From contig NC_083224.1 of NCBI RefSeq assembly GCF_032191835.1, positions 117,924,001-117,988,000 of the forward strand: a stretch of DNA of 64,000 bases, in the 5' to 3' direction. The stretch is from Heteronotia binoei. Taxonomy: Eukaryota. How positions within the stretch are numbered: position 1 is the first letter of the stretch; each line of letters begins with the position of its first letter. The notes under the pieces are model-generated. The model had not been told where the DNA came from, ran no database searches, and saw nothing but the letters and a program-made list of their open reading frames with translations. This document shows positions 1,411 through 61,440 of the stretch, one piece after another. A program made the translations under genes and the position numbers.

Positions 1411-1422
1411 TTTCCCCTCTTT
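1411..1422 (-). promoter_or_regulatory. Polypurine tract of the ERV
   Basis: AAAGAGGGGAAA lies between the env TGA and the LTR TG on the minus strand. Confidence 0.85.
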
Positions 1423-2690
1423 CAAACGGAGTTTGACGTTTCATTTGCTCTTTCGGGGTCCGCCTGCTTTTCCACATACTGCTGGCGGATGGTCTTCATC
1501 ATCTCATACACAGGTTCTCCATCTGAGGGTGAAAGCAACTGCTGGCAATGCTTCAGTATCTCTGGTAAGCAGCGGATACATCCATAGATGATCAGGGCGG
1601 CTATTATGAATGTGAGAACTATAACAAACCCATGTCGCAGCCAAGAGAAGTCTGGGAGCCAGCTGGTCAGCCATTGGAATAGGTCTGACCCGGAATCAAA
1701 CGCTTTATCTGCTCCCTGGGCCTGCTTGACCAGGCCCCTGAAGGTTTTTACTCCTGAAAGGATTTGACCGGATTTATTGACATAAAAACAACAGACTTCT
1801 CCCAGGTACGCACAGGCACCACCCTGTTCTGAGAGCATTTGGTCTAGGACCCTGCGGTTCTGGAGAACCACATTAGCAATACTGTCAACCTCCTTTTGCA
1901 GAGTAAACAGGGATGAGGCTGTCTTCTCGAGCCCCTCTTGCAGAATGCGAGAAAGATTTCTAGTATAGATTTGTAAATCAGAGACTCCCCAACCCGGTAT
2001 CAGGGCACGCAGAAAATCTAACAGGCCTGAGCTCTTCTCATAGAAGCTGCGTTTTTCTCTTAAGTTATGGCCTGTACGTGCTGTAGGGTAGCCTAGATTT
2101 AATGCCTCGTGCGCCATTACCTCACTTCGGAGGTGTCCTGCCACCGTCAGGTAGCCCACCGAGCACAGTCCGCTCCAATGAATGGGTAGGTACTTGTAAC
2201 CTATCTTTCCACATATCCAATACAACCCCGGGAGGTCAATATAGATACCGTCTACAAGGGCATAAGAAGCGTTACACATGTTCTTAAAGAGAGTCAACGT
2301 CCTAGGGTGTGTGCTGGTATTGCAGACTTGTAAGTAGGCCAGACCTGTAAGCCAGACGGATTCATGGGATTTAGTCCAGAGCCCCTCTTTTGATTCCTCC
2401 CACAATGTGCCTCGGGTACCTATCTGCAAGGCATAGTCACCAGTCCGTAAGTATGACACCGAACCTGCCATGCTACCCCGTGTCTGCCAGCCGACCTTGT
2501 TCGGGTCTAAAAAAAGGACATAGCGACAATTTTCATCTTGTAAATATCCTACACTTGGGCCACTTCCACTACCTGTGATGCACCAAGGGTATCGTCTCTG
2601 ATGTTTTGCTGCAATGGGGTGCAAGTCAAACATAATGCCATCTCGGCCTTTTACCCGAAAACTGTTATGAGGGTTCCAAGATGTATTTCT
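1422..2690 (-). CDS. env: 5'-truncated gamma-type retroviral envelope: C-terminal SU plus complete TM
   Basis: The frame is open for 422 codons from the junction at 2690 (first ATG at 2633, 403 aa). It has an SU motif PGLYWICG...WSGLC, furin site REKR (2049-2060), fusion peptide, immunosuppressive-domain-like LQNRRVLDQMLSEQGG, CX6CC (CAYLGEVCC), a transmembrane helix and a cytoplasmic tail. No signal peptide or SU CXXC is present. Confidence 0.93.
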   Translation of the reverse strand, partial: RNTSWNPHNSFRVKGRDGIMFDLHPIAAKHQRRYPWCITGSGSGPSVGYLQDENCRYVLFLDPNKVGWQTRGSMAGSVSYLRTGDYALQIGTRGTLWEESKEGLWTKSHESVWLTGLAYLQVCNTSTHPRTLTLFKNMCNASYALVDGIYIDLPGLYWICGKIGYKYLPIHWSGLCSVGYLTVAGHLRSEVMAHEALNLGYPTARTGHNLREKRSFYEKSSGLLDFLRALIPGWGVSDLQIYTRNLSRILQEGLEKTASSLFTLQKEVDSIANVVLQNRRVLDQMLSEQGGACAYLGEVCCFYVNKSGQILSGVKTFRGLVKQAQGADKAFDSGSDLFQWLTSWLPDFSWLRHGFVIVLTFIIAALIIYGCIRCLPEILKHCQQLLSPSDGEPVYEMMKTIRQQYVEKQADPERANETSNSV

Positions 2691-3295
2691 ACCTGCAAAT
2701 AGTCTTCACCCTTTCTATTCAAATTAGGCTACAGTGGGCTGCTGCTTTAAGAGGCAGGAAGCCATTTGAAGGCTCCCTTTTGCTCTCCCACCTGCAAGTG
2801 GGAGGGGGTGAAAGGCAAGCTTCTAATGGCTGCCTACCTTCCTGCCTGTCTTCCTGTCATTTCTCTGTCTCCCTGTTTTCCTTCCTTCCGTCCTTTCCCT
2901 TTATTTTATTCCTTTCTCCCAAATATTTACATAACATTCACCTCATTAATTCCTCTCATTCTTTCTGTCTCTCTCTGTCTTTGTCTTTCATTCTATTTCC
3001 TCCTCACTTTTTTTCTCCCACTCCTCCCCCCCCCTTTTTCGATATCTCTCTTTTGTTCTTTCTCTAATTCTTTCTCTGTATCTCTGTCTTTCTGTCTTTT
3101 ATTTCATTCTGGCTGCAATCACACATACCAAATAATGCACTTTCAATTTGGGTTCCAGGTTCAATTCAAAAAATATCTGGGGACTTTGGGAATGGAGCCA
3201 GGAGACATCAGGAGTGGAGCCAGAAGCAAGGTTGTGACAAGCATAATTGAACTTCAAAGGGAGTTCTGTCCATCACATTTAAAGGGATTGCACAG
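2691..3295. repeat. Direct repeat A' (605 bp), the right copy of the duplicated ERV flank
   Basis: Near-identical to 195-800. It continues into CTTTTAAATGCC, the uninterrupted continuation of the host repeat. Confidence 0.95.
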
Positions 3296-43699: not shown

Positions 43700-44640
43700 A
43701 ACCAGTCTCCCATAAATCTAGCTGCGCAGACTTCTTTGGCTCCAAATGCTTAAAGTCTTCTTTGTTTCTAAGTAGCTTGTCCGCCACTGACAAAGAGTGT
43801 CATTCTGCAGACCTGATCAGAATTTTCCCAGTCTAGTGGTAATTGTCAACTGTTCTTTAACTGGAAGAGATGAAAAGTTGTTCAGTAACTCCCCTTCCAT
43901 AGAGTTTTCCAATGAGGAGTGTTCTAACATCAGTTTCTGAGAGGTAGGAGCGATGAAGCTCAAATTCTGATCTTTCTGAGACACCTCCTTCTGATTCTCT
44001 TTAGTTGTCTTATCCACCTCCATTCAAGAAACTTCTGTAGATCCGGATGGTAACAAAGGATTTAAAATTAGGTTATCAAAAACTCTGGCAGCAAAGATTT
44101 CCCTACTATATAAAAAATTCTTTTTTACGCAGCAATATACTGGGAATCTTAGAGCTTCCAAACTTGAGGATCACTCTTTGTGCTTGATTTGAGTTATTTA
44201 GAAGCTCTACAGAGTTTAAATCAATTATAGGGCTCTTCATCTGTAAGAGAGTTCTTAAATGCTGAATAACTCTCCCCTTTGTGTTCCATATCTTCTGGCC
44301 TTTGTATCTACCAATTGTCAAGCATATTTTCCTTGCTTGTAACTTTAAATGAAATTTAGCTGCTTTTCCAGACTGCCAGACTTTTCCTTTTTTGGGGTTC
44401 TCTTTCTGAGTTAACCCTGGGAAATTTTTTAGAGATAGCCCATCAGGATTTAAATTACTTTTATTACTGTTCAATATAATTTGAGTAAGATGGTCCACTT
44501 TGTTTTCAGTTGCCTTTATCCTATTCAGGACAACTTCCAAAGTCTTAGCTGTTAGTTGAATAACCTCATTCAACATTTTCTCAGGCAGTCTATAGCAGTC
44601 TATAGTTAACAAGCACAGAGTCATTCAGATTTCCTACATC
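43700..44640 (-). pseudogene. Degenerate ORF1 homologous to ORF1 of the LINE at 55582-61017
   Basis: LKLQARKICLTI...IDLNSVELL...QRVILKFGSSKIPSILLRKK aligns with LVLQPNKVCITV...IDLITIESL...QRILLTFQSSNIPSLILRRK. MEGELLNNFSSLPVKEQ aligns with LEDDLLQSFGSLPAKDQ. Confidence 0.8.
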
Positions 44641-55049: not shown

Positions 55050-55581
55050 GCCCAGGCAAAAACTTGTTGGTTTGAAAAAAACAACTTTGGATCCTTCCAA
55101 TTATCACCCAGTTTCAAATTTATTATTTCTATGCAAGATAATTGAGAGGGTGGTTGCCAAGCAGCTCCAGTGTTTCCTGGCTGACACGTCAGCACTAGAC
55201 CCATTCCAGTCTGGCTTCCGTCCTGGTCATGAGATGAAGATGGCTCTGGTCACCCTCACATATGAGCTCTATAGACAGCTGAATCAAGCCAGATCAGTGC
55301 TGCTGCTATTACTAGATCTTATAGCAGTATTTGACACAGTTGGCCATGATCTTCTAGCCCACTACCTCTCCAACACAGGAGTTCGTGGGGTAGTCCTGAA
55401 GTGGATCTCCTAATTCTTTCATGGTTGGGGGCAGAGGGTGGCACTGCATGATAGGATGTCCTCTAGGCACTCCAGGTTTGTGATGTGCCTCAGCGAGCCA
55501 TCCTCTCCCCAATGTTATTTAACATCTATATGCACCCCCTTGCCCAGCTGGCACAGAGTTTCAGGTTGAGTTGTCATTAAT
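55050..55581 (+). mobile_element. Degenerate L2 RT fragment, left part (continues at 61018-61440)
   Basis: NYHPVSNL.FL.K..ERVVA.QL, PFQSGFRPGH, LLDL.AVFDTV. The YADDTQL motif resumes directly after the inserted LINE. Confidence 0.8.
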
Positions 55582-56169
55582 GGCAGACTCGGAGGAAGGC
55601 AGCCGCTTGTCTCTTCGCTCCTACTAACGCTAAGTTGTTTTAATCTTTTAACTTTTATCTTGCCTTGACAGAAGGAATTGTTTTTAAATAATCTTATCCT
55701 ATCACCTCACTTTTGATATTTGGTGCCTCTGTTTTGTCTTTCCCAAGCTCTGGTTGTTTAATTAGTCAATAAGCCTCTGCTTTCGTTTTCCTAATCAGAA
55801 GCTGCTGCAGCTAACGACCTACAGCTGAAGTTTTATAAAGTTTTATAAAGTTTTACATAGTCTTAGCCTGTCTCTCAAAGACAGGGTTTTGTTTTTTTTT
55901 TTTGTTTGTTTGTTTTAGAATCTTTTAATTTGAACTGAAGGTTGAAATTAAGTCAACTCCTGCAAAGCAACAAGGCGGAGTGCAGTCGGCTACAGAGTTG
56001 GCTCTGACAAATTTGGCTTTTAAAGATATTTTACAATATTCTTAGCAGATGTTGTGGCTTTTATCTGTAAGTTTTAAGACATTAGTTGTTTGGTATTTGT
56101 TTTATTTTTTTATTTTTTTATTCATTTTTATCAGGACAGGGCTAATTGCCACCCAACAGAACCCTCTTA

Positions 56170-57555
56170 ATGGCATCAGGCAAGCGGCCAAGAGAAGTGG
56201 AGGAGGAATCTGCTTCTTTGCCACTTTGCAAACAGTTCAGGATAGAGGACTTTTTTACCTTAAACAATAAGTCCAAATCTGCTCTGCCGTCATTTGCTAT
56301 TGAAACATCGAATCGCTTCTCCCCTTTAGAAGACGAGGTAGAGCCTGCTGAAAAGGAGGAACCGACTAATGAATTGACTAATGAGTCTGATCACGAGGAT
56401 GGCGTTGACTCTCAACTCCTATCTGGGGTGGGGGCTTTAAAGGTGCAGCAGAGTCAGCATGATAATGAAGAAAGATCCATGTCTTCTGACGAACTTGCCC
56501 CAATTACCCTTATTGCAAGCACAGTGGATTGTATCTTTAAAAAGTTAAAGAGTTTAGAAGACCAAATTCTTGACCTTTCTTTAGAACTAAAGAGACTATC
56601 AGTGTCAATGGATAAAGTCTACTTAGCCCAGCTGGATGATACCTCTATTGGTGCTCTAGCCCCTTTAAAGCGATGTCCGTCTGCAACTCAGGAGGTTGAT
56701 CCCCGGAGCTCCTTTACGGAGTCTAAGGTCAGCGTGGGCCTTAAAAGGAACGTGCAACAATTGGTTCTACAGCCCAATAAGGTTTGCATCACTGTTTGTC
56801 CTTATGGCAGGAAGACCCCATGCTGGAGAAGTAAACTTTTAGCTAAATCCCATCTCTGTGAACTTCTTCATCTGAACTATCACAAAATTGACTTGATTAC
56901 CATTGAATCTCTTAATGATCAGTCTCAAATGCAGAGGATTCTGCTTACCTTTCAATCCTCCAACATTCCTTCACTAATTTTGAGGCGAAAGAATTACCTA
57001 TGGTCAAAGGGGGTTTTCCCTGTTCGATCTTTTATTAACTCTCAAACTAATGCTCTGCTGCCTAACCTGTCCGCAGGGGTCAGGACACGAAGTAATCCCC
57101 ATCTCTTGAAGAACGCATCATCTTCAGCGGCAAAATATAAGGCTGCAATGTGTCTTAAGGTATCCAGATCTGGTCAGTCCCAAGCAAACCCCGAGTTGCA
57201 TAATGAGTCATCAGTGCAGCCCTCTATGGATGTGACGCATAGTCCCCTTAATGTTTCATTAGAAGATGACCTTTTGCAGTCATTTGGGAGTCTTCCAGCA
57301 AAAGATCAACAGGCGATACTCATAAGACTTGAAGGTACTAAGCTGCAGCTGCAAAGGTCTTTAGAGCCGGGGAAATCAGTTCCTTCAATCAACCTAGATC
57401 CTGCAAGCAACCCCCTGCCCCCTTGTCCCCCATCAGCTGACTTAATTGATCTGTCTATGGAACTCTCTCTAACTGGCTCAAGGGCACCCCAACATAATGG
57501 TTGTATTTTCACTGATGACTCCAGGGTTCTAGAAAGGATATCCATTATCGATTGA
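56170..57555 (+). CDS. LINE ORF1 protein (461 aa from the first ATG)
   Basis: Uninterrupted frame with a KRPR basic motif, an SNRFSPL motif, a predicted coiled coil (FKKLKSLEDQILDLSLELKRL) and a putative RRM-like block. The track start at 56146 is a TTG. Confidence 0.85.
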   Translation: MASGKRPREVEEESASLPLCKQFRIEDFFTLNNKSKSALPSFAIETSNRFSPLEDEVEPAEKEEPTNELTNESDHEDGVDSQLLSGVGALKVQQSQHDNEERSMSSDELAPITLIASTVDCIFKKLKSLEDQILDLSLELKRLSVSMDKVYLAQLDDTSIGALAPLKRCPSATQEVDPRSSFTESKVSVGLKRNVQQLVLQPNKVCITVCPYGRKTPCWRSKLLAKSHLCELLHLNYHKIDLITIESLNDQSQMQRILLTFQSSNIPSLILRRKNYLWSKGVFPVRSFINSQTNALLPNLSAGVRTRSNPHLLKNASSSAAKYKAAMCLKVSRSGQSQANPELHNESSVQPSMDVTHSPLNVSLEDDLLQSFGSLPAKDQQAILIRLEGTKLQLQRSLEPGKSVPSINLDPASNPLPPCPPSADLIDLSMELSLTGSRAPQHNGCIFTDDSRVLERISIID

Positions 57556-60500
57556 CTACCAGCTAGGGAAGCCACAAGGAAGATCCACATCATCTCCTGG
57601 AACATTGCTGGGTGGAAGAGTAAAGCGAATGACTCAGATTTTTTGGACTTTTTGAAATCCTTTGATTGTGTCTTCCTTCAGGAAACATGGGCAGAAGACA
57701 GTTTTAGACTGACGGATTTTAAAGTTTTTAATCTCCCCGCTTATAGATCTCACTCTAAAGGTCGCAGTAAAGCAGGCATGGCTGCTTTGGTGAAATCCAG
57801 CTTACCATTTAAGGTGATCCTCTTGGATCCTTGCCCGCCAATTGCCCAGGCTTTATTGCTGTCCTCCCCAGCACTGACCCTAATCATGATTAATGTTTAT
57901 TTAGCCCCTTCTAATGGTGAGCTGGAGTTTGATGCTGTCTGGGAGAAATTTTCTGACTATGTGACGTCTTTGTCTAGGAAATTCCATACTGCTCAGCTCA
58001 TGATTTTTGGTGATTTTAATGCTCGGATAGGCAGTAACAATCAGAAATGGATCTCTCATTTTGGCTTTGAAGCGGTTGAATCCCCTCCACTACAACTATG
58101 TTTACCCCGTTGTTCTAAAGATACTTTAACCAATAAGGCGGGTCTTAGATTAATTGAATTCTGCATAGCGCACAATGTTATAATATTTAATGGTCTCTCC
58201 AAATTTCCAGCTGCAAATGACTTTACTTTTTTTTCCACAAGGGGTTGCAGTGTGATAGATTTTTGTGTGGGCTCATCCAACCTTCTGTCATCTATCGATA
58301 ACTTTTACATCGATCCGCGCACAGAAAGTGACCACCTGCCCCTAACTCTATCCCTACGATTGGATCTGGAGGTTAATATGGTATCACCTTCCCAATCCAT
58401 GAAGGCCCCTGAGAATGTTCTAAAAAAAATCAAGTGGTCCCCGGCCCTAGAAAGGGAGTTTTCTTCCCTCTTTGGCTCTGAAGCGCTATGCAGATTAAGG
58501 GATTCAATCATTAATTCCAATTCAGATGATTCAATCCTTTCAGGATTTTCATTATTAATTGATTATTGTAGTGCCAAAGCTAAACCGGTGATCTTGTCTA
58601 GGTCTAGTTTCTCCAGCTGGTTCGATACAGATTGTTTAGCTTGGAAACAAGAACTGAGAGCTCATTTTAAAGAGGCTTGTCACTCCAAAGACCAATCAAA
58701 AATTAAGGCCTACATTGCTTACAAGACAGCCTACCTGGAGCTTACTACATCCAAAAAGAAAGCTTTCTTTCAGAATAAATGGGACCAACTTTACCACTCG
58801 ATAAAATCTAACGATAATAAGGCCTTCTGGAGAATCATTTCAGGTAATCTAAAAAACAATTCTGTTACTGACCCAAATATCTCTGAGCAAACATGGGTTG
58901 ATTACTTCTCTAACATTTTTGCTGCCCCATGTGTATCCCCTCCCATCTTAGCAAACCCCTCAGTTACTGATATGCCGGTCTGGCCTCCAGTAACTCTAGA
59001 GGAAATCAGTGAGTTATTGAAGGATTTAAAAGCGGGTAAAGCACCTGGCCCTGATGGCCTTCCCACTGAGGTATTCACAAAGTTTGCCGATTGGTGGCTC
59101 TTGCCCCTTGCAAAATTGTTCTCTTTTATCGATCTGCATGGCTCCATCCCTGACTCTTGGCTTGACTCTATAATTATCCCAATATACAAAAAGGGGGGGT
59201 TGGAGTTACCAGAAAACTTCCGCCCCATTAGTTTATTATCTATAGTGGGCAAATTGTATGCAAAACATTTAGAACTCCGATTAACTGACTGGATGCGCCT
59301 AGGCAACATCATAGGTCCTGAACAGATTGGCTTCTCCAAAGGCAAATCTGCTATGGATCACTGCTGCACTCTGGCCTTCCTTGCTGAAAAATATATGCAT
59401 ACCGGGTCAAAAAAATTATATGCTGCCTTCATCGATTTGAAGGGTGCTTTTGATTCAATAGATAGAGCCCAACTATGGATCAAGCTAGGTTACCTGGGAA
59501 TGGACCCTCGTTTGCTGTTTCTCTTGAGGAAACTTCATTCTAATACCTTTTGCCAAGTGAAATTTTCTTCTAGCGGTGACTTGACTAGTAAAATCCCAGT
59601 GTTAAAGGGGGTAAAACAAGGTTGTGTGCTGGCCCCACATCTTTTTAATTTATTTTTAACTGACCTGGCACAATTTTTGACCCCTATCAATGGTCATCCG
59701 CCTAAACTTGCAGGCCGAGCGGTCCCCTTATTACTTTATGCCGATGACACTACCATCCTCTCTTGTACAAGAGTGGGCCTGCAAAGGTATTTGAACGCCT
59801 TTTATGACTACTGTAATTGTAATTCACTCTCTATCAATTATGCCAAATCTAAAGTAGTTGTCTTTTCAAATTGCTGGGGCCCACAGAGATGGTTTATTGG
59901 CAATTCAACAATCGAGCAAACAAAAATTTTTAAATACTTGGGGATCACTTTTAACCACAAGTTAAGCTGGGTTTCACATCGTAACAACACCATCAACTTG
60001 GCTAAGTGTTCAGCTGCTCAAATTAAACAGTTTTTCTTTGCAAGGGGCAACCAATTAGTTCCAGCAGCTATTAAAGTATTCAAAGCCAAAACGCTTGCCC
60101 AAATCCTCTATGGTATCCCTATATGGATCTCAGCTTTTACCAGGAAAGTGGAGGGCATTCAAGCCTCATTCTTTAGACAAATTCTTGGTTTGCCAAAATG
60201 TGTGTCCTACTTTGCTCTCTGCTCTGAAGTGGGTCAGTCTTTGGTGGAGACAAAAGCCTGGATTGCAGTGTTTAAATCCTGGCTCAAAATTCATTTTAGA
60301 ACAGATCCCAACAGCCTCCTTGATTGTATGAAAAGAGACCCATATATTTCGTCCTGGACAGCAGTGCTTCTGTCTAAACTCAATCAATTGGGGTTAGAGG
60401 TAGATGATTTTTCTACCTCTGAAGAGTCATATATCTTCAGATGTATTAAACTGAGACTGTGGGAATTGGAGGAAACGAAATTACGGCCAACTCTCCCTTA

Positions 60501-60900
60501 TACTTGCTCTCCAGCTTCCTTAGGTCTTTATGCTTTTTGTGGCAAAATGCCCAATTATCTATCAGACCTAACCACTCCAAGTCATCGCAGGGCATTTATG
60601 TTGGCCAGACTAAACGCGTTTCCCTCCAAAGTTTTACAAGGGAGATATCAGCGAGTCCCTTTAGCCGACAGACTTTGCTCCTGTGGAGCGAATACCCCTG
60701 ACTCAATCCAGCATATATTGCTTGATTGTTCTTTTTACCATAACCTCCGTAAAGATTTATTTGGCAAGCTTTCTTTTTCTCCAGATTTGTCTATTCTGCC
60801 ACCCTGTTATTATTTATTGAGTGATACTGAGGGGGTGGTTAGTGAGGCTGTGGCAAAATTTCTGGCTGACATCCTTAAATTTAATTCTGACCATGTTTGA
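57556..60900 (+). CDS. LINE ORF2: APE endonuclease, reverse transcriptase and C-terminal CCHC-type finger (1114 codons, no initiating AUG)
   Basis: IISWNIAG, FLQETW, GDFNAR, SVIDF, SDHLP; KAPGPDG, FRPISLL, QIGF, FIDLKGAFDSI, GVKQGCVLAPHLF, LLYADD; CSCG...IQHILLDC. The frame is open from 57556 and is the same frame as ORF1. Confidence 0.95.
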   Translation, partial: LPAREATRKIHIISWNIAGWKSKANDSDFLDFLKSFDCVFLQETWAEDSFRLTDFKVFNLPAYRSHSKGRSKAGMAALVKSSLPFKVILLDPCPPIAQALLLSSPALTLIMINVYLAPSNGELEFDAVWEKFSDYVTSLSRKFHTAQLMIFGDFNARIGSNNQKWISHFGFEAVESPPLQLCLPRCSKDTLTNKAGLRLIEFCIAHNVIIFNGLSKFPAANDFTFFSTRGCSVIDFCVGSSNLLSSIDNFYIDPRTESDHLPLTLSLRLDLEVNMVSPSQSMKAPENVLKKIKWSPALEREFSSLFGSEALCRLRDSIINSNSDDSILSGFSLLIDYCSAKAKPVILSRSSFSSWFDTDCLAWKQELRAHFKEACHSKDQSKIKAYIAYKTAYLELTTSKKKAFFQNKWDQLYHSIKSNDNKAFWRIISGNLKNNSVTDPNISEQTWVDYFSNIFAAPCVSPPILANPSVTDMPVWPPVTLEEISELLKDLKAGKAPGPDGLPTEVFTKFADWWLLPLAKLFSFIDLHGSIPDSWLDSIIIPIYKKGGLELPENFRPISLLSIVGKLYAKHLELRLTDWMRLGNIIGPEQIGFSKGKSAMDHCCTLAFLAEKYMHTGSKKLYAAFIDLKGAFDSIDRAQLWIKLGYLGMDPRLLFLLRKLHSNTFCQVKFSSSGDLTSKIPVLKGVKQGCVLAPHLFNLFLTDLAQFLTPINGHPPKLAGRAVPLLLYADDTTILSCTRVGLQRYLNAFYDYCNCNSLSINYAKSKVVVFSNCWGPQRWFIGNSTIEQTKIFKYLGITFNHKLSWVSHRNNTINLAKCSAAQIKQFFFARGNQLVPAAIKVFKAKTLAQILYGIPIWISAFTRKVEGIQASFFRQILGLPKCVSYFALCSEVGQSLVETKAWIAVFKSWLKIHFRTDPNSLLDCMKRDPYISSWTAVLLSKLNQLGLEVDDFSTSEESYIFRCIKLRLWELEETKLRPTLPYTCSPASLGLYAFCGKMPNYLSDLTTPSHRRAFMLARLNAFPSKVLQGRYQRVPLADRLCSCGANTPDSIQHILLDCSFYHNLRKDLFGKLSFSPDLSILPPCYYLLSDTEGVVSEAVAKFLADILKFNSDHV

Positions 60901-61017
60901 ATGTATCTGTAAGCTCGGTTTTATTTTGATTTTATCTCCAATGTTTAAATTTTTATATTCTGTGTATTTTTATCTGAATCTATTATGCCATTAAAGGTTT
61001 GGTATGGTATGGTATTG

Positions 61018-61440
61018 GAGTTGTCATTAATATGTTGATGACACCCAGCTTTAACTGTTGATGGGTGACAAGCCAGGAACCACCCCAGTTAATCTGGCTA
61101 ATCTGGTTAATCCATGCAACAGTCATCAACTGGCTGGATTATTGTAACTTGCTCTATGTGGGCCTACCCTTGAGGCTGACTTGAAAACTCCAGCTGGTGC
61201 AAAATGCAACAGCCTGTGTCCTGACAGGAACCCCACACACAGTGCACATCTCTTTGCATTGGCTTCTGGTGGAGATGCACTGGCTTCTGGTGAAATACCG
61301 AATCAGATTCAAGGTCATGGTGTTGACTTTAAAGCTCTTAATGGCCTGGGACCTGTATACCTTTAGGACTGTATACCTTTATCTCCTGATAGACCCCCAG
61401 CAGAGCCTTGTGCTCTGTTGACCAACATTTGCTGATGGTC
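61018..61440 (+). mobile_element. Degenerate L2 RT and C-terminal fragment, right part
   Basis: YVDDTQL, LQLVQNATAC.LTG, and LHWL.V.YRI.FK motifs. Confidence 0.75.

What the first reader, a model, noticed from the sequence alone, without database searches (positions are those of the whole stretch)
57541..57780. LINE ORF1 and ORF2 in one frame, separated by a single TGA-CTA: candidate programmed readthrough
Seen: ...ATC GAT TGA CTA CCA GCT... at 57553. ORF2 continues in the ORF1 frame as LPAREATRKIHIISWNIAGW...FLQETW. Its first in-frame ATG (57778, codon 75) lies downstream of the conserved endonuclease SWN and QETW motifs, so a complete enzyme cannot start at an AUG. Established: UGA followed by CUA is a known leaky context (alphavirus nsP3/nsP4; UGA-CUAG in vertebrate AQP4, MDH1, LDHB and OPRK1). 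Gammaretroviruses set the Gag:Pol ratio by readthrough, whereas mammalian L1 ORF2 uses unconventional reinitiation. Inference: this LINE may make abundant ORF1p plus a rarer 1576-aa ORF1-ORF2 fusion by readthrough, a retrovirus-like expression strategy that I do not know as standard for LINEs. Alternatives are non-AUG reinitiation, or a private nonsense mutation in a single-ORF element.
Basis: partly seen in the sequence, partly recalled or inferred. Interest (0 to 1): 0.82.

Follow-up and report, generated by a model that had tools for sequence, protein, structure and literature searches.

The report
Lizard LINE leaky-stop ORF1-ORF2 fusion
A young, abundant lizard jumping-gene family keeps a weak stop codon between its two in-frame genes and has no start codon for the second; most related lineages in the genome keep this signal, two carry a slippery stop instead, so the enzyme is likely made as a rare fused protein, as in retroviruses.

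Summary
Observation confirmed. ORF1 (461 aa) ends at TGA 57553-57555. ORF2 (endonuclease + reverse transcriptase, 1114 codons) follows in frame, and its first ATG is codon 75. The stop is not a private mutation: 153 of 159 genomic copies read TGA-CTA. Across 41 divergent lineage clusters in this genome (sampled endonucleases 22-60% identical to the window's), 23 have in-frame TGA-C 9-22 codons before the endonuclease motif. They use both classic readthrough contexts (CUA/CGG and CAA-YYA-like). Two sister lineages instead place ORF2 in the +1 frame behind a shifty stop (CTT-TAR-C, 22 of 22 copies; TTT-TGA-C, 18 of 19), also without an AUG. Best reading: programmed recoding gives a rare ORF1p-ORF2p fusion (about 0.75; translation untested). 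Main rival: AUG-independent reinitiation. Against: no stimulatory RNA structure was found, some lineages have an upstream AUG, and DNA from other reptiles could not be seen. Precedent: the same readthrough or +1 frameshift was suggested from sequence for Paramecium LINEs (PMC5405496). This scan also noted an in-frame stop in a dinoflagellate LINE. Eight literature searches found no vertebrate case. Verdict: new variant of a known kind, directly testable.

The parts
55568..55581 (+). Left target-site duplication (14 bp), inside an older CR1/L2-like RT remnant
   Evidence: Same 14 bases at 61018-61031; flanking frame 55036-55410 hits RVT_1
55582..56169 (+). 5' UTR of the full-length element
   Evidence: Starts after the duplication; an older copy (L229) aligns from about 55585
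56170..57552 (+). ORF1, 461 aa: predicted coiled coil (109-154), RRM-like domain (198-296), helical hairpin (359-397), long disordered tail
   Evidence: no Pfam hit; Foldseek hits to RRMs only weak, E >= 0.006; homologous across lineages and to a Zootoca protein
57493..57552 (+). Conserved ORF1 C-terminal motif (NG-x-[IV]-F-x-D ... D/N before the stop)
   Evidence: Recurs in many lineages; not packed on the endonuclease in the model (pLDDT about 40-52)
57553..57558 (+). TGA-CTA leaky-stop signal
   Evidence: 153 of 159 copies; TGA-C modal in 23 of 41 lineage clusters
57556..60900 (+). ORF2, 1114 codons, no ATG before codon 75
57571..58335 (+). APE endonuclease domain (first strand from codon 6)
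   Evidence: Pfam PF03372/PF14529; model pLDDT 87.8
59188..59952 (+). Reverse transcriptase domain
   Evidence: PF00078, E 8.8e-33
60677..60729 (+). C-terminal Cys/His cluster (C-x-C ... H ... C)
   Evidence: Read from the translation
60901..61017 (+). Short AT-rich 3' UTR ending in ATTAAA and a (TGGTA)3 tail
61018..61031 (+). Right target-site duplication

Best explanation
This is a full-length copy of a very young LINE whose two genes lie in one frame, separated by a single TGA-CTA and with no usable AUG for the second, so a small share of ribosomes likely reads through the stop and makes an ORF1p-ORF2p fusion that would be the working endonuclease/reverse transcriptase. Shown: the anatomy, the fixation of the stop in the family, the conservation of in-frame TGA-C across divergent lineages, and a +1 shifty stop in two sister lineages. 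Inferred: slow termination at a weak stop lets a near-cognate tRNA in (TGA-C lineages) or lets the P-site tRNA slip +1 (CTT-TAR-C and TTT-TGA-C lineages). The level would be about 1-3%, by analogy with UGA-CUA reporters, giving abundant ORF1p and scarce enzyme. More speculative: the fusion's coiled coil would pull the enzyme into the ORF1p particle, as Gag does with Gag-Pol.
For: (1) 153 of 159 copies read TGA-CTA. Of the 30 loci with the best-scoring ORF2, 29 have it, median identity 99.6%, and 13 (the window's own included) have the full 469-codon ORF1 frame open; the family has clearly spread in this state. (2) Of 41 endonuclease-supported clusters, 23 have modal in-frame TGA-C 9-22 codons upstream; 13 of 19 multi-copy clusters do, and 2 more are +1. 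(3) 23 of 28 TGA clusters have C at +4, against 20% of off-frame TGAs (binomial 4e-12, lineages not fully independent). (4) Synonymous sites are largely scrambled between lineages: same codon at 26-55% of shared residues. After the stop, Leu is CTN in 18 clusters and TTR in 1, whereas all 15 conserved Leu columns in the endonuclease mix both. (5) The codon after the stop switches among CTN, CGG/CAG and CAA-(TTT/TAT/CTA/TTC/CTT), resembling the type II and type I contexts defined in PMC13517186 (passages). (6) Control: the ORF2 stop is modal TGA-C in 0 of 10 lineages read. (7) Two lineages forming one supported clade (97/97) have ORF1 open for up to 540-595 codons, ending in CTT-TAA/TAG-C (22 of 22) or TTT-TGA-C (18 of 19), with ORF2 in +1 and no AUG. 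(8) UGA-CUA alone gives 1.5% readthrough (PMC4132726 abstract).
Against: No protein, ribosome-profiling or reporter data. No stimulatory structure 3' of the stop: z +0.68 in the window; among 26 representatives, z <= -2 in only 3 at 60 nt and 1 at 120 nt; Rfam found nothing. The context lacks the G of CUAG. TGA identity alone is not decisive, since ORF2 stops are TGA in 6 of 10 lineages too (P 0.07). Some lineages have an in-frame AUG before SWN: the young L221 family 11 codons before it (with TGA-CTG kept), the old L077 family (TGA-TGT, AUG at codon 4), and the L083 family (Met just before SWN). 15 of the 41 clusters show neither signal by the script's rule, and its one further +1 call (L156) is a doubtful single copy; most are single decayed or 5'-truncated copies, and L147 and L063/L137 show TGA-C on inspection. 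Relatives from other sources (P0003, P0022, P0016) have long open stretches before SWN, and their DNA could not be seen. The ORF1 tail does not pack on the endonuclease in the model. Where tested, in rat L1, the data argue against a fusion (PMC2241872 passage).
Confidence: 0.75

Rival explanations
1. Ribosomes terminate at the TGA and restart close by without an AUG (L1-type unconventional termination-reinitiation), giving a separate ORF2p; the weak stop only helps the ribosome linger.
For: Termination-reinitiation is the mechanism described for L1 and SART1 (PMC5972666; PMC10760644; passages). Near-cognate ATC codons lie at ORF2 codons 10, 12 and 13. Some lineages have an AUG shortly after the stop. 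That L1 ORF2 can start without its AUG is recalled; the paper was not held.
Against: It does not explain why the frame is kept through about a dozen spacer lengths, why +4 C and known readthrough contexts are kept, or why the out-of-frame lineages carry exactly a slippery codon before the stop. CTA, CTC, CTT, CAA and CGG are not near-cognate starts. The ATC codons fall inside the first modelled strand.
Confidence: 0.17
2. The RNA is changed before translation: A-to-I editing turns UGA into a Trp codon, or splicing removes the stop.
For: UGA is one edit from UGG; only a small share of transcripts would be needed.
Against: Four RNA runs of related elements showed no joints, and no change at 57553-57558 among the 40 best-supported differences listed (520 more were not shown; depth 2-8 at the junction in the raw-read runs, both strands, 3'-biased, so a weak test). 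No long duplex covers the stop. It does not cover the +1 lineages. Edited RNA would be copied into sense-codon insertions, but young copies keep TGA.
Confidence: 0.04
3. The TGA is a nonsense mutation in a single-ORF element that is dead or moved in trans.
For: Three copies with a sense codon exist, as do single such copies in other lineages (L110, L146, L176).
Against: These are lone, old copies; 153 of 159 copies have the stop, and it sits at the same place in lineages with scrambled synonymous sites.
Confidence: 0.01
4. UGA is decoded as selenocysteine.
For: The stop is UGA in the in-frame lineages.
Against: No Rfam match (SECIS included) over the element; the 3' UTR is about 115 nt and AT-rich; the +4 C bias and the +1 lineages are unexplained.
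Confidence: 0.01

Closest known systems
Paramecium non-LTR retrotransposons, Groups 1-3 (PMC5405496; passages read)
   Same: APE-RT LINEs with an ORF1. Their consensus sequences were taken to suggest +1 frameshifting or reinitiation (Groups 1-2) or readthrough of the ORF1 stop (Group 3): the same two options.
   Different: A separate ciliate clade in a host with another genetic code (recalled); suggested from sequence, with no context analysis in the passages seen. Here the host is a vertebrate, the family is very young, and the signal is traced over many lineages.
Type II (alphavirus UGA-CUA/CGG) and type I (TMV CAR-YYA) readthrough; vertebrate UGA-CUAG genes (PMC13517186, PMC4132726; passages)
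   Same: Stop identity and 3' context; low-level extension into a polymerase.
   Different: No 3' stem-loop detected; CUAC rather than CUAG; the product has no protease to cut it.
Gammaretroviral Gag-Pol readthrough (PMC13517186 table)
   Same: Structural gene and RT gene in one frame with one stop that sets their ratio.
   Different: Uses UAG-G and a pseudoknot; an LTR virus; the polyprotein is cleaved (recalled).
Shifty-stop +1 frameshifting: antizyme (UCC-UGA; yeast GCG-UGA-C), Ty1 CUU-AGG-C (PMC5009743 passages); bacterial RF2 CUU-UGA-C (site recalled)
   Same: Slip-prone codon before a slow stop, next ORF in +1, as in the two sister lineages.
   Different: Found here at a LINE ORF1/ORF2 border; no stimulator identified.
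L1 and SART1 ORF2 translation; 2A StopGo in single-ORF LINEs (PMC3894237, parts 1-2 of 3 read; PMC5972666, PMC2241872 passages)
   Same: All keep ORF2p scarce relative to ORF1p.
   Different: These give a separate ORF2p (L1 spacer with two stops; SART1 UAAUG overlap; 2A skip). The text read from the 2013 review names neither readthrough nor frameshifting for LINEs.

Membership tests
APE-type non-LTR retrotransposon (LINE) | APE endonuclease followed by RT in ORF2 | tested here: met
   Pfam; model
APE-type non-LTR retrotransposon (LINE) | Target-site duplication, simple-repeat 3' tail, 5'-truncated dispersed copies | tested here: met
   14-bp duplication and (TGGTA)3 tail; truncated copies among L031-L060
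APE-type non-LTR retrotransposon (LINE) | ORF1 with coiled coil and RNA-binding domain | tested here: inconclusive
   Model mean pLDDT 51.6, with confident helix and beta-alpha-beta domain; RRM and L1 ORF1p hits only at E 0.007-0.03; Atlas best 0.87, unnamed
RTEX (RTE-X) clade | Groups with Repbase RTEX in an RT tree | not testable with these tools
   No labelled reference was available; the label is recalled from general resemblance only. The defining paper was not held
RTEX (RTE-X) clade | ORF1 esterase, seen in some RTEX (PMC3905857) | tested here: not met
   No Pfam family in ORF1, no esterase fold in the model; not required of all members
Type II stop-codon readthrough | UGA followed by CUA or CGG, next ORF in frame | tested here: met
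Type II stop-codon readthrough | Context conserved at nucleotide level beyond synonymous drift | tested here: met
   control
Type II stop-codon readthrough | 3' stimulatory stem-loop (needed by some viruses, conditional for UGA-CUA) | tested here: not met
   long-range pairs beyond 200 nt not tested
Type II stop-codon readthrough | Extended protein or reporter readthrough shown | not testable with these tools
   No ribosome profiling or proteomics available
Shifty-stop +1 frameshifting (sister lineages) | ORF2 in +1, P-site codon able to re-pair one base on, weak stop in the A-site | tested here: met
   CTT-TAR-C 22 of 22, TTT-TGA-C 18 of 19, frames
SART1-type stop-start coupling | Overlapping stop and AUG opening ORF2 | tested here: not met
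   No ATG in the ORF2 frame before codon 75
2A StopGo LINEs | DxExNPGP motif at the ORF2 N-terminus | tested here: not met
   Absent from the translation

The most novel reading that the evidence does not exclude
A squamate-wide LINE clade makes its reverse transcriptase only as an uncleaved ORF1p-ORF2p fusion by recoding at a weak stop. It has moved between type II readthrough, type I readthrough and +1 shifty-stop frameshifting. This would be the first vertebrate LINE with Gag-Pol-like expression, and the strategy may be widespread among LINEs: distant metagenomic LINEs show in-frame UAG-G or UGA-G junctions without an AUG.
Probability: 0.55. Interest if true: 0.88.

Novelty: new variant of a known kind. 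Interest (0 to 1): 0.76.

Why it matters
How LINEs translate ORF2 is an open question, answered experimentally mainly for L1 and SART1, both as separate proteins. A near-intact, 99.6%-identical vertebrate family, with natural comparators that differ only in the recoding signal, makes the fusion route directly testable with reporters and retrotransposition assays. It also supplies a natural library of vertebrate readthrough and +1 frameshift contexts. And it shows that ORF2 annotations starting at the first AUG miss the catalytic N-terminus, as in the Podarcis UniRef entries.

Tried and rejected
- RNA structure 3' or 5' of the stop: no consistent signal; Rfam found none.
- ORF1 tail folding onto the endonuclease: not supported.
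- Private nonsense mutation: rejected.
The metagenome scan returned only distant LINEs (21-33% identity).
- RNA runs: related elements are present, but reads are on both strands, shallow at the junction and 3'-biased, so they show neither expression of a full transcript nor editing.
- ORF1 family searches: Pfam, the Atlas and Foldseek gave only weak leads.
- Searching the genome with a Podarcis-type ORF2 returned only the window's family.
- The script's '+1' call for single copy L156 was not accepted. L226 (TAA in frame) is one copy with a 7-nt deletion in a +1 family.
- Kojima 2005, Alisch 2006 and Kapitonov 2009 were not held. Repbase entries and subscription papers were not searchable and may already note this junction. 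No supplements were read; those of PMC5405496 may describe the ciliate junction contexts.
Full report
Observation. The window holds a 5.4-kb element (55582-61017) between 14-bp duplications, inserted into an older CR1/L2-like remnant. ORF1 runs from ATG 56170 to TGA 57553-57555. ORF2 continues in the same frame for 1114 codons, with APE endonuclease and RT domains. Its first ATG is codon 75. An AlphaFold model of the junction, read through the stop (76-sequence alignment, pLDDT 87.8), puts the first endonuclease strand at ORF2 codons 6-16, so no AUG start can give a whole enzyme. The host is likely a gecko or other lizard, inferred from source names of homologues: Heteronotia, Zootoca, Podarcis, Rhineura, Pogona, Hemicordylus.

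The stop is the family state. With the six junction bases left free, 159 copies match the flanks and 153 read TGA-CTA. Of the 100 listed, five differ: two keep TGA and three have a sense codon. Those three are single copies only 84-92% identical to the window. Among the 30 loci with the best-scoring ORF2 (a set biased to intact copies), 29 carry TGA-CTA and one is truncated past the junction. Median identity is 99.6%, and 13 have the whole ORF1 frame open. A family this young and intact must make its enzyme with this junction.

Comparison across lineages. Four motif scans for the endonuclease N-terminus found 343, 127, 121 and 114 places. I examined 192 hits: the first 30 loci of each scan, 60 further rows picked for variety, 17 follow-up stretches and the window, with duplicates removed. 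26 hits were dropped for lacking endonuclease similarity downstream; a few of these were interrupted true copies that do show TGA-C. The remaining 166 formed 41 clusters. In-frame TGA-C within 9-22 codons is modal in 23 clusters (13 of 19 multi-copy) and present in 109 of 166 copies. Five clusters have TGA with another base, two multi-copy clusters are +1, and the other eleven are mostly single decayed or truncated copies. Long open ORF1 frames (250-515 codons) end at this stop in copies of several lineages, and ORF1s align across lineages.

The signal lies in the nucleotides. Endonucleases of 20 sampled copies are 22-60% identical to the window's, and share the same codon at only 26-55% of identical residues. 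C follows TGA in 23 of 28 clusters, against 20% for off-frame TGAs. The following Leu is CTN in 18 clusters and TTR in one, whereas all 15 conserved Leu columns in the domain mix both. Other lineages replace it with CGG/CAG or CAA-YTN/TAT, close to the type II and type I contexts reviewed in PMC13517186 (passages). ORF2's own stop is modal TGA-C in none of 10 lineages, though TGA in six and TAA-C in two. So the +4 C and the kept frame carry the argument, not TGA alone. Lineages share ancestry, so the P values are only guides.

A second solution. Two young lineages have ORF2 in the +1 frame with no AUG. Their ORF1 (up to 540-595 open codons) ends in CTT-TAA-C or CTT-TAG-C (22 of 22 copies) or in TTT-TGA-C (18 of 19). 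They form one supported clade (97/97) among the readthrough-type lineages; the deeper branches are open. A codon that can re-pair one base on, followed by a weak stop, is the layout of shifty-stop frameshifting (antizyme and Ty1 sites in PMC5009743, passages; RF2 site recalled). Both layouts centre on slow termination and both yield a fusion. Reinitiation predicts neither.

What did not support it. No stem-loop signal follows the stop. The context is CUAC; UGA-CUA alone gave 1.5% in reporters (PMC4132726 abstract), which may be enough for an enzyme needed in few copies (inference). One young family has both TGA-CTG and an AUG six codons later, and one old family has TGA-TGT with an AUG at codon 4 and may have switched to reinitiation. 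The conserved ORF1 tail motif does not pack on the endonuclease. RNA runs showed no splice joints but were too shallow and unstranded to test editing. Junction DNA outside this genome was not seen. Podarcis UniRef entries start at a Met downstream of SWN, consistent with a missing upstream AUG, but three other relatives have long open N-terminal stretches.

Known and new. Eight searches of the open library listed no vertebrate LINE with readthrough or frameshift at this border; most hits were seen only as listings. One paper suggests both options from Paramecium LINE consensus sequences (PMC5405496, passages). A review of LINE protein synthesis lists stop-start coupling, reinitiation, IRES and 2A only (PMC3894237, parts 1-2 of 3). 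The clade name RTEX is recalled and untested.

Verdict. The feature is real, conserved and under nucleotide-level constraint. Recoding to an ORF1p-ORF2p fusion is the best explanation (0.75), and AUG-independent reinitiation is the main rival (0.17). New variant of a known kind; interest 0.76.

Noticed in passing
L235, L236, L242, L250, L251, L257, L258, L265 and L231 (metagenome contigs): Distant LINEs (22-28% endonuclease identity) have an ORF1-like frame in line with ORF2, one stop and no AUG. The stop is TAG-GGG/GAG-GGC (like the gammaretroviral type III context) in eight loci of one family, and TGA-GGA after 297 open codons in L231.
   Followed up: partly
L221-L223 (G000 C1, C2): A second young family has nearly the same ORF1 N-terminus as the window's family, but a different ORF1 C-terminal part and an ORF2 only 31% identical in the endonuclease: likely a recombinant.
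   Followed up: partly
P0011: An annotated TRIM/RFP-like protein ends in the last ~75 residues of an older copy of this ORF1 and stops where ORF1 stops: possible exonisation or a gene-model artefact. P0176 similarly joins an endonuclease piece to a zinc-finger gene model.
   Followed up: no
window 57493-57552 and homologues: The motif NG-x-[IV]-F-x-D about 20 residues before the stop is kept in many lineages within an otherwise variable tail. It could be a nascent-peptide modulator of termination or a protein-binding motif.
   Followed up: partly
window 43829-44624 (- strand): Decayed ORF1 fragment of another lineage of the same clade (29-32% identity); no junction or endonuclease motif beside it.
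   Followed up: partly
window 1422-2705 (- strand): A 427-codon open frame resembling a retroviral envelope protein (judged by eye from the translation), between two copies of a repeated stretch that may be LTRs.
   Followed up: no
L077, L126, L161, L165: An old lineage with TGA-TGT and an in-frame AUG at codon 4 after the stop in 3 of 4 copies: possible loss of readthrough in favour of reinitiation.
   Followed up: partly
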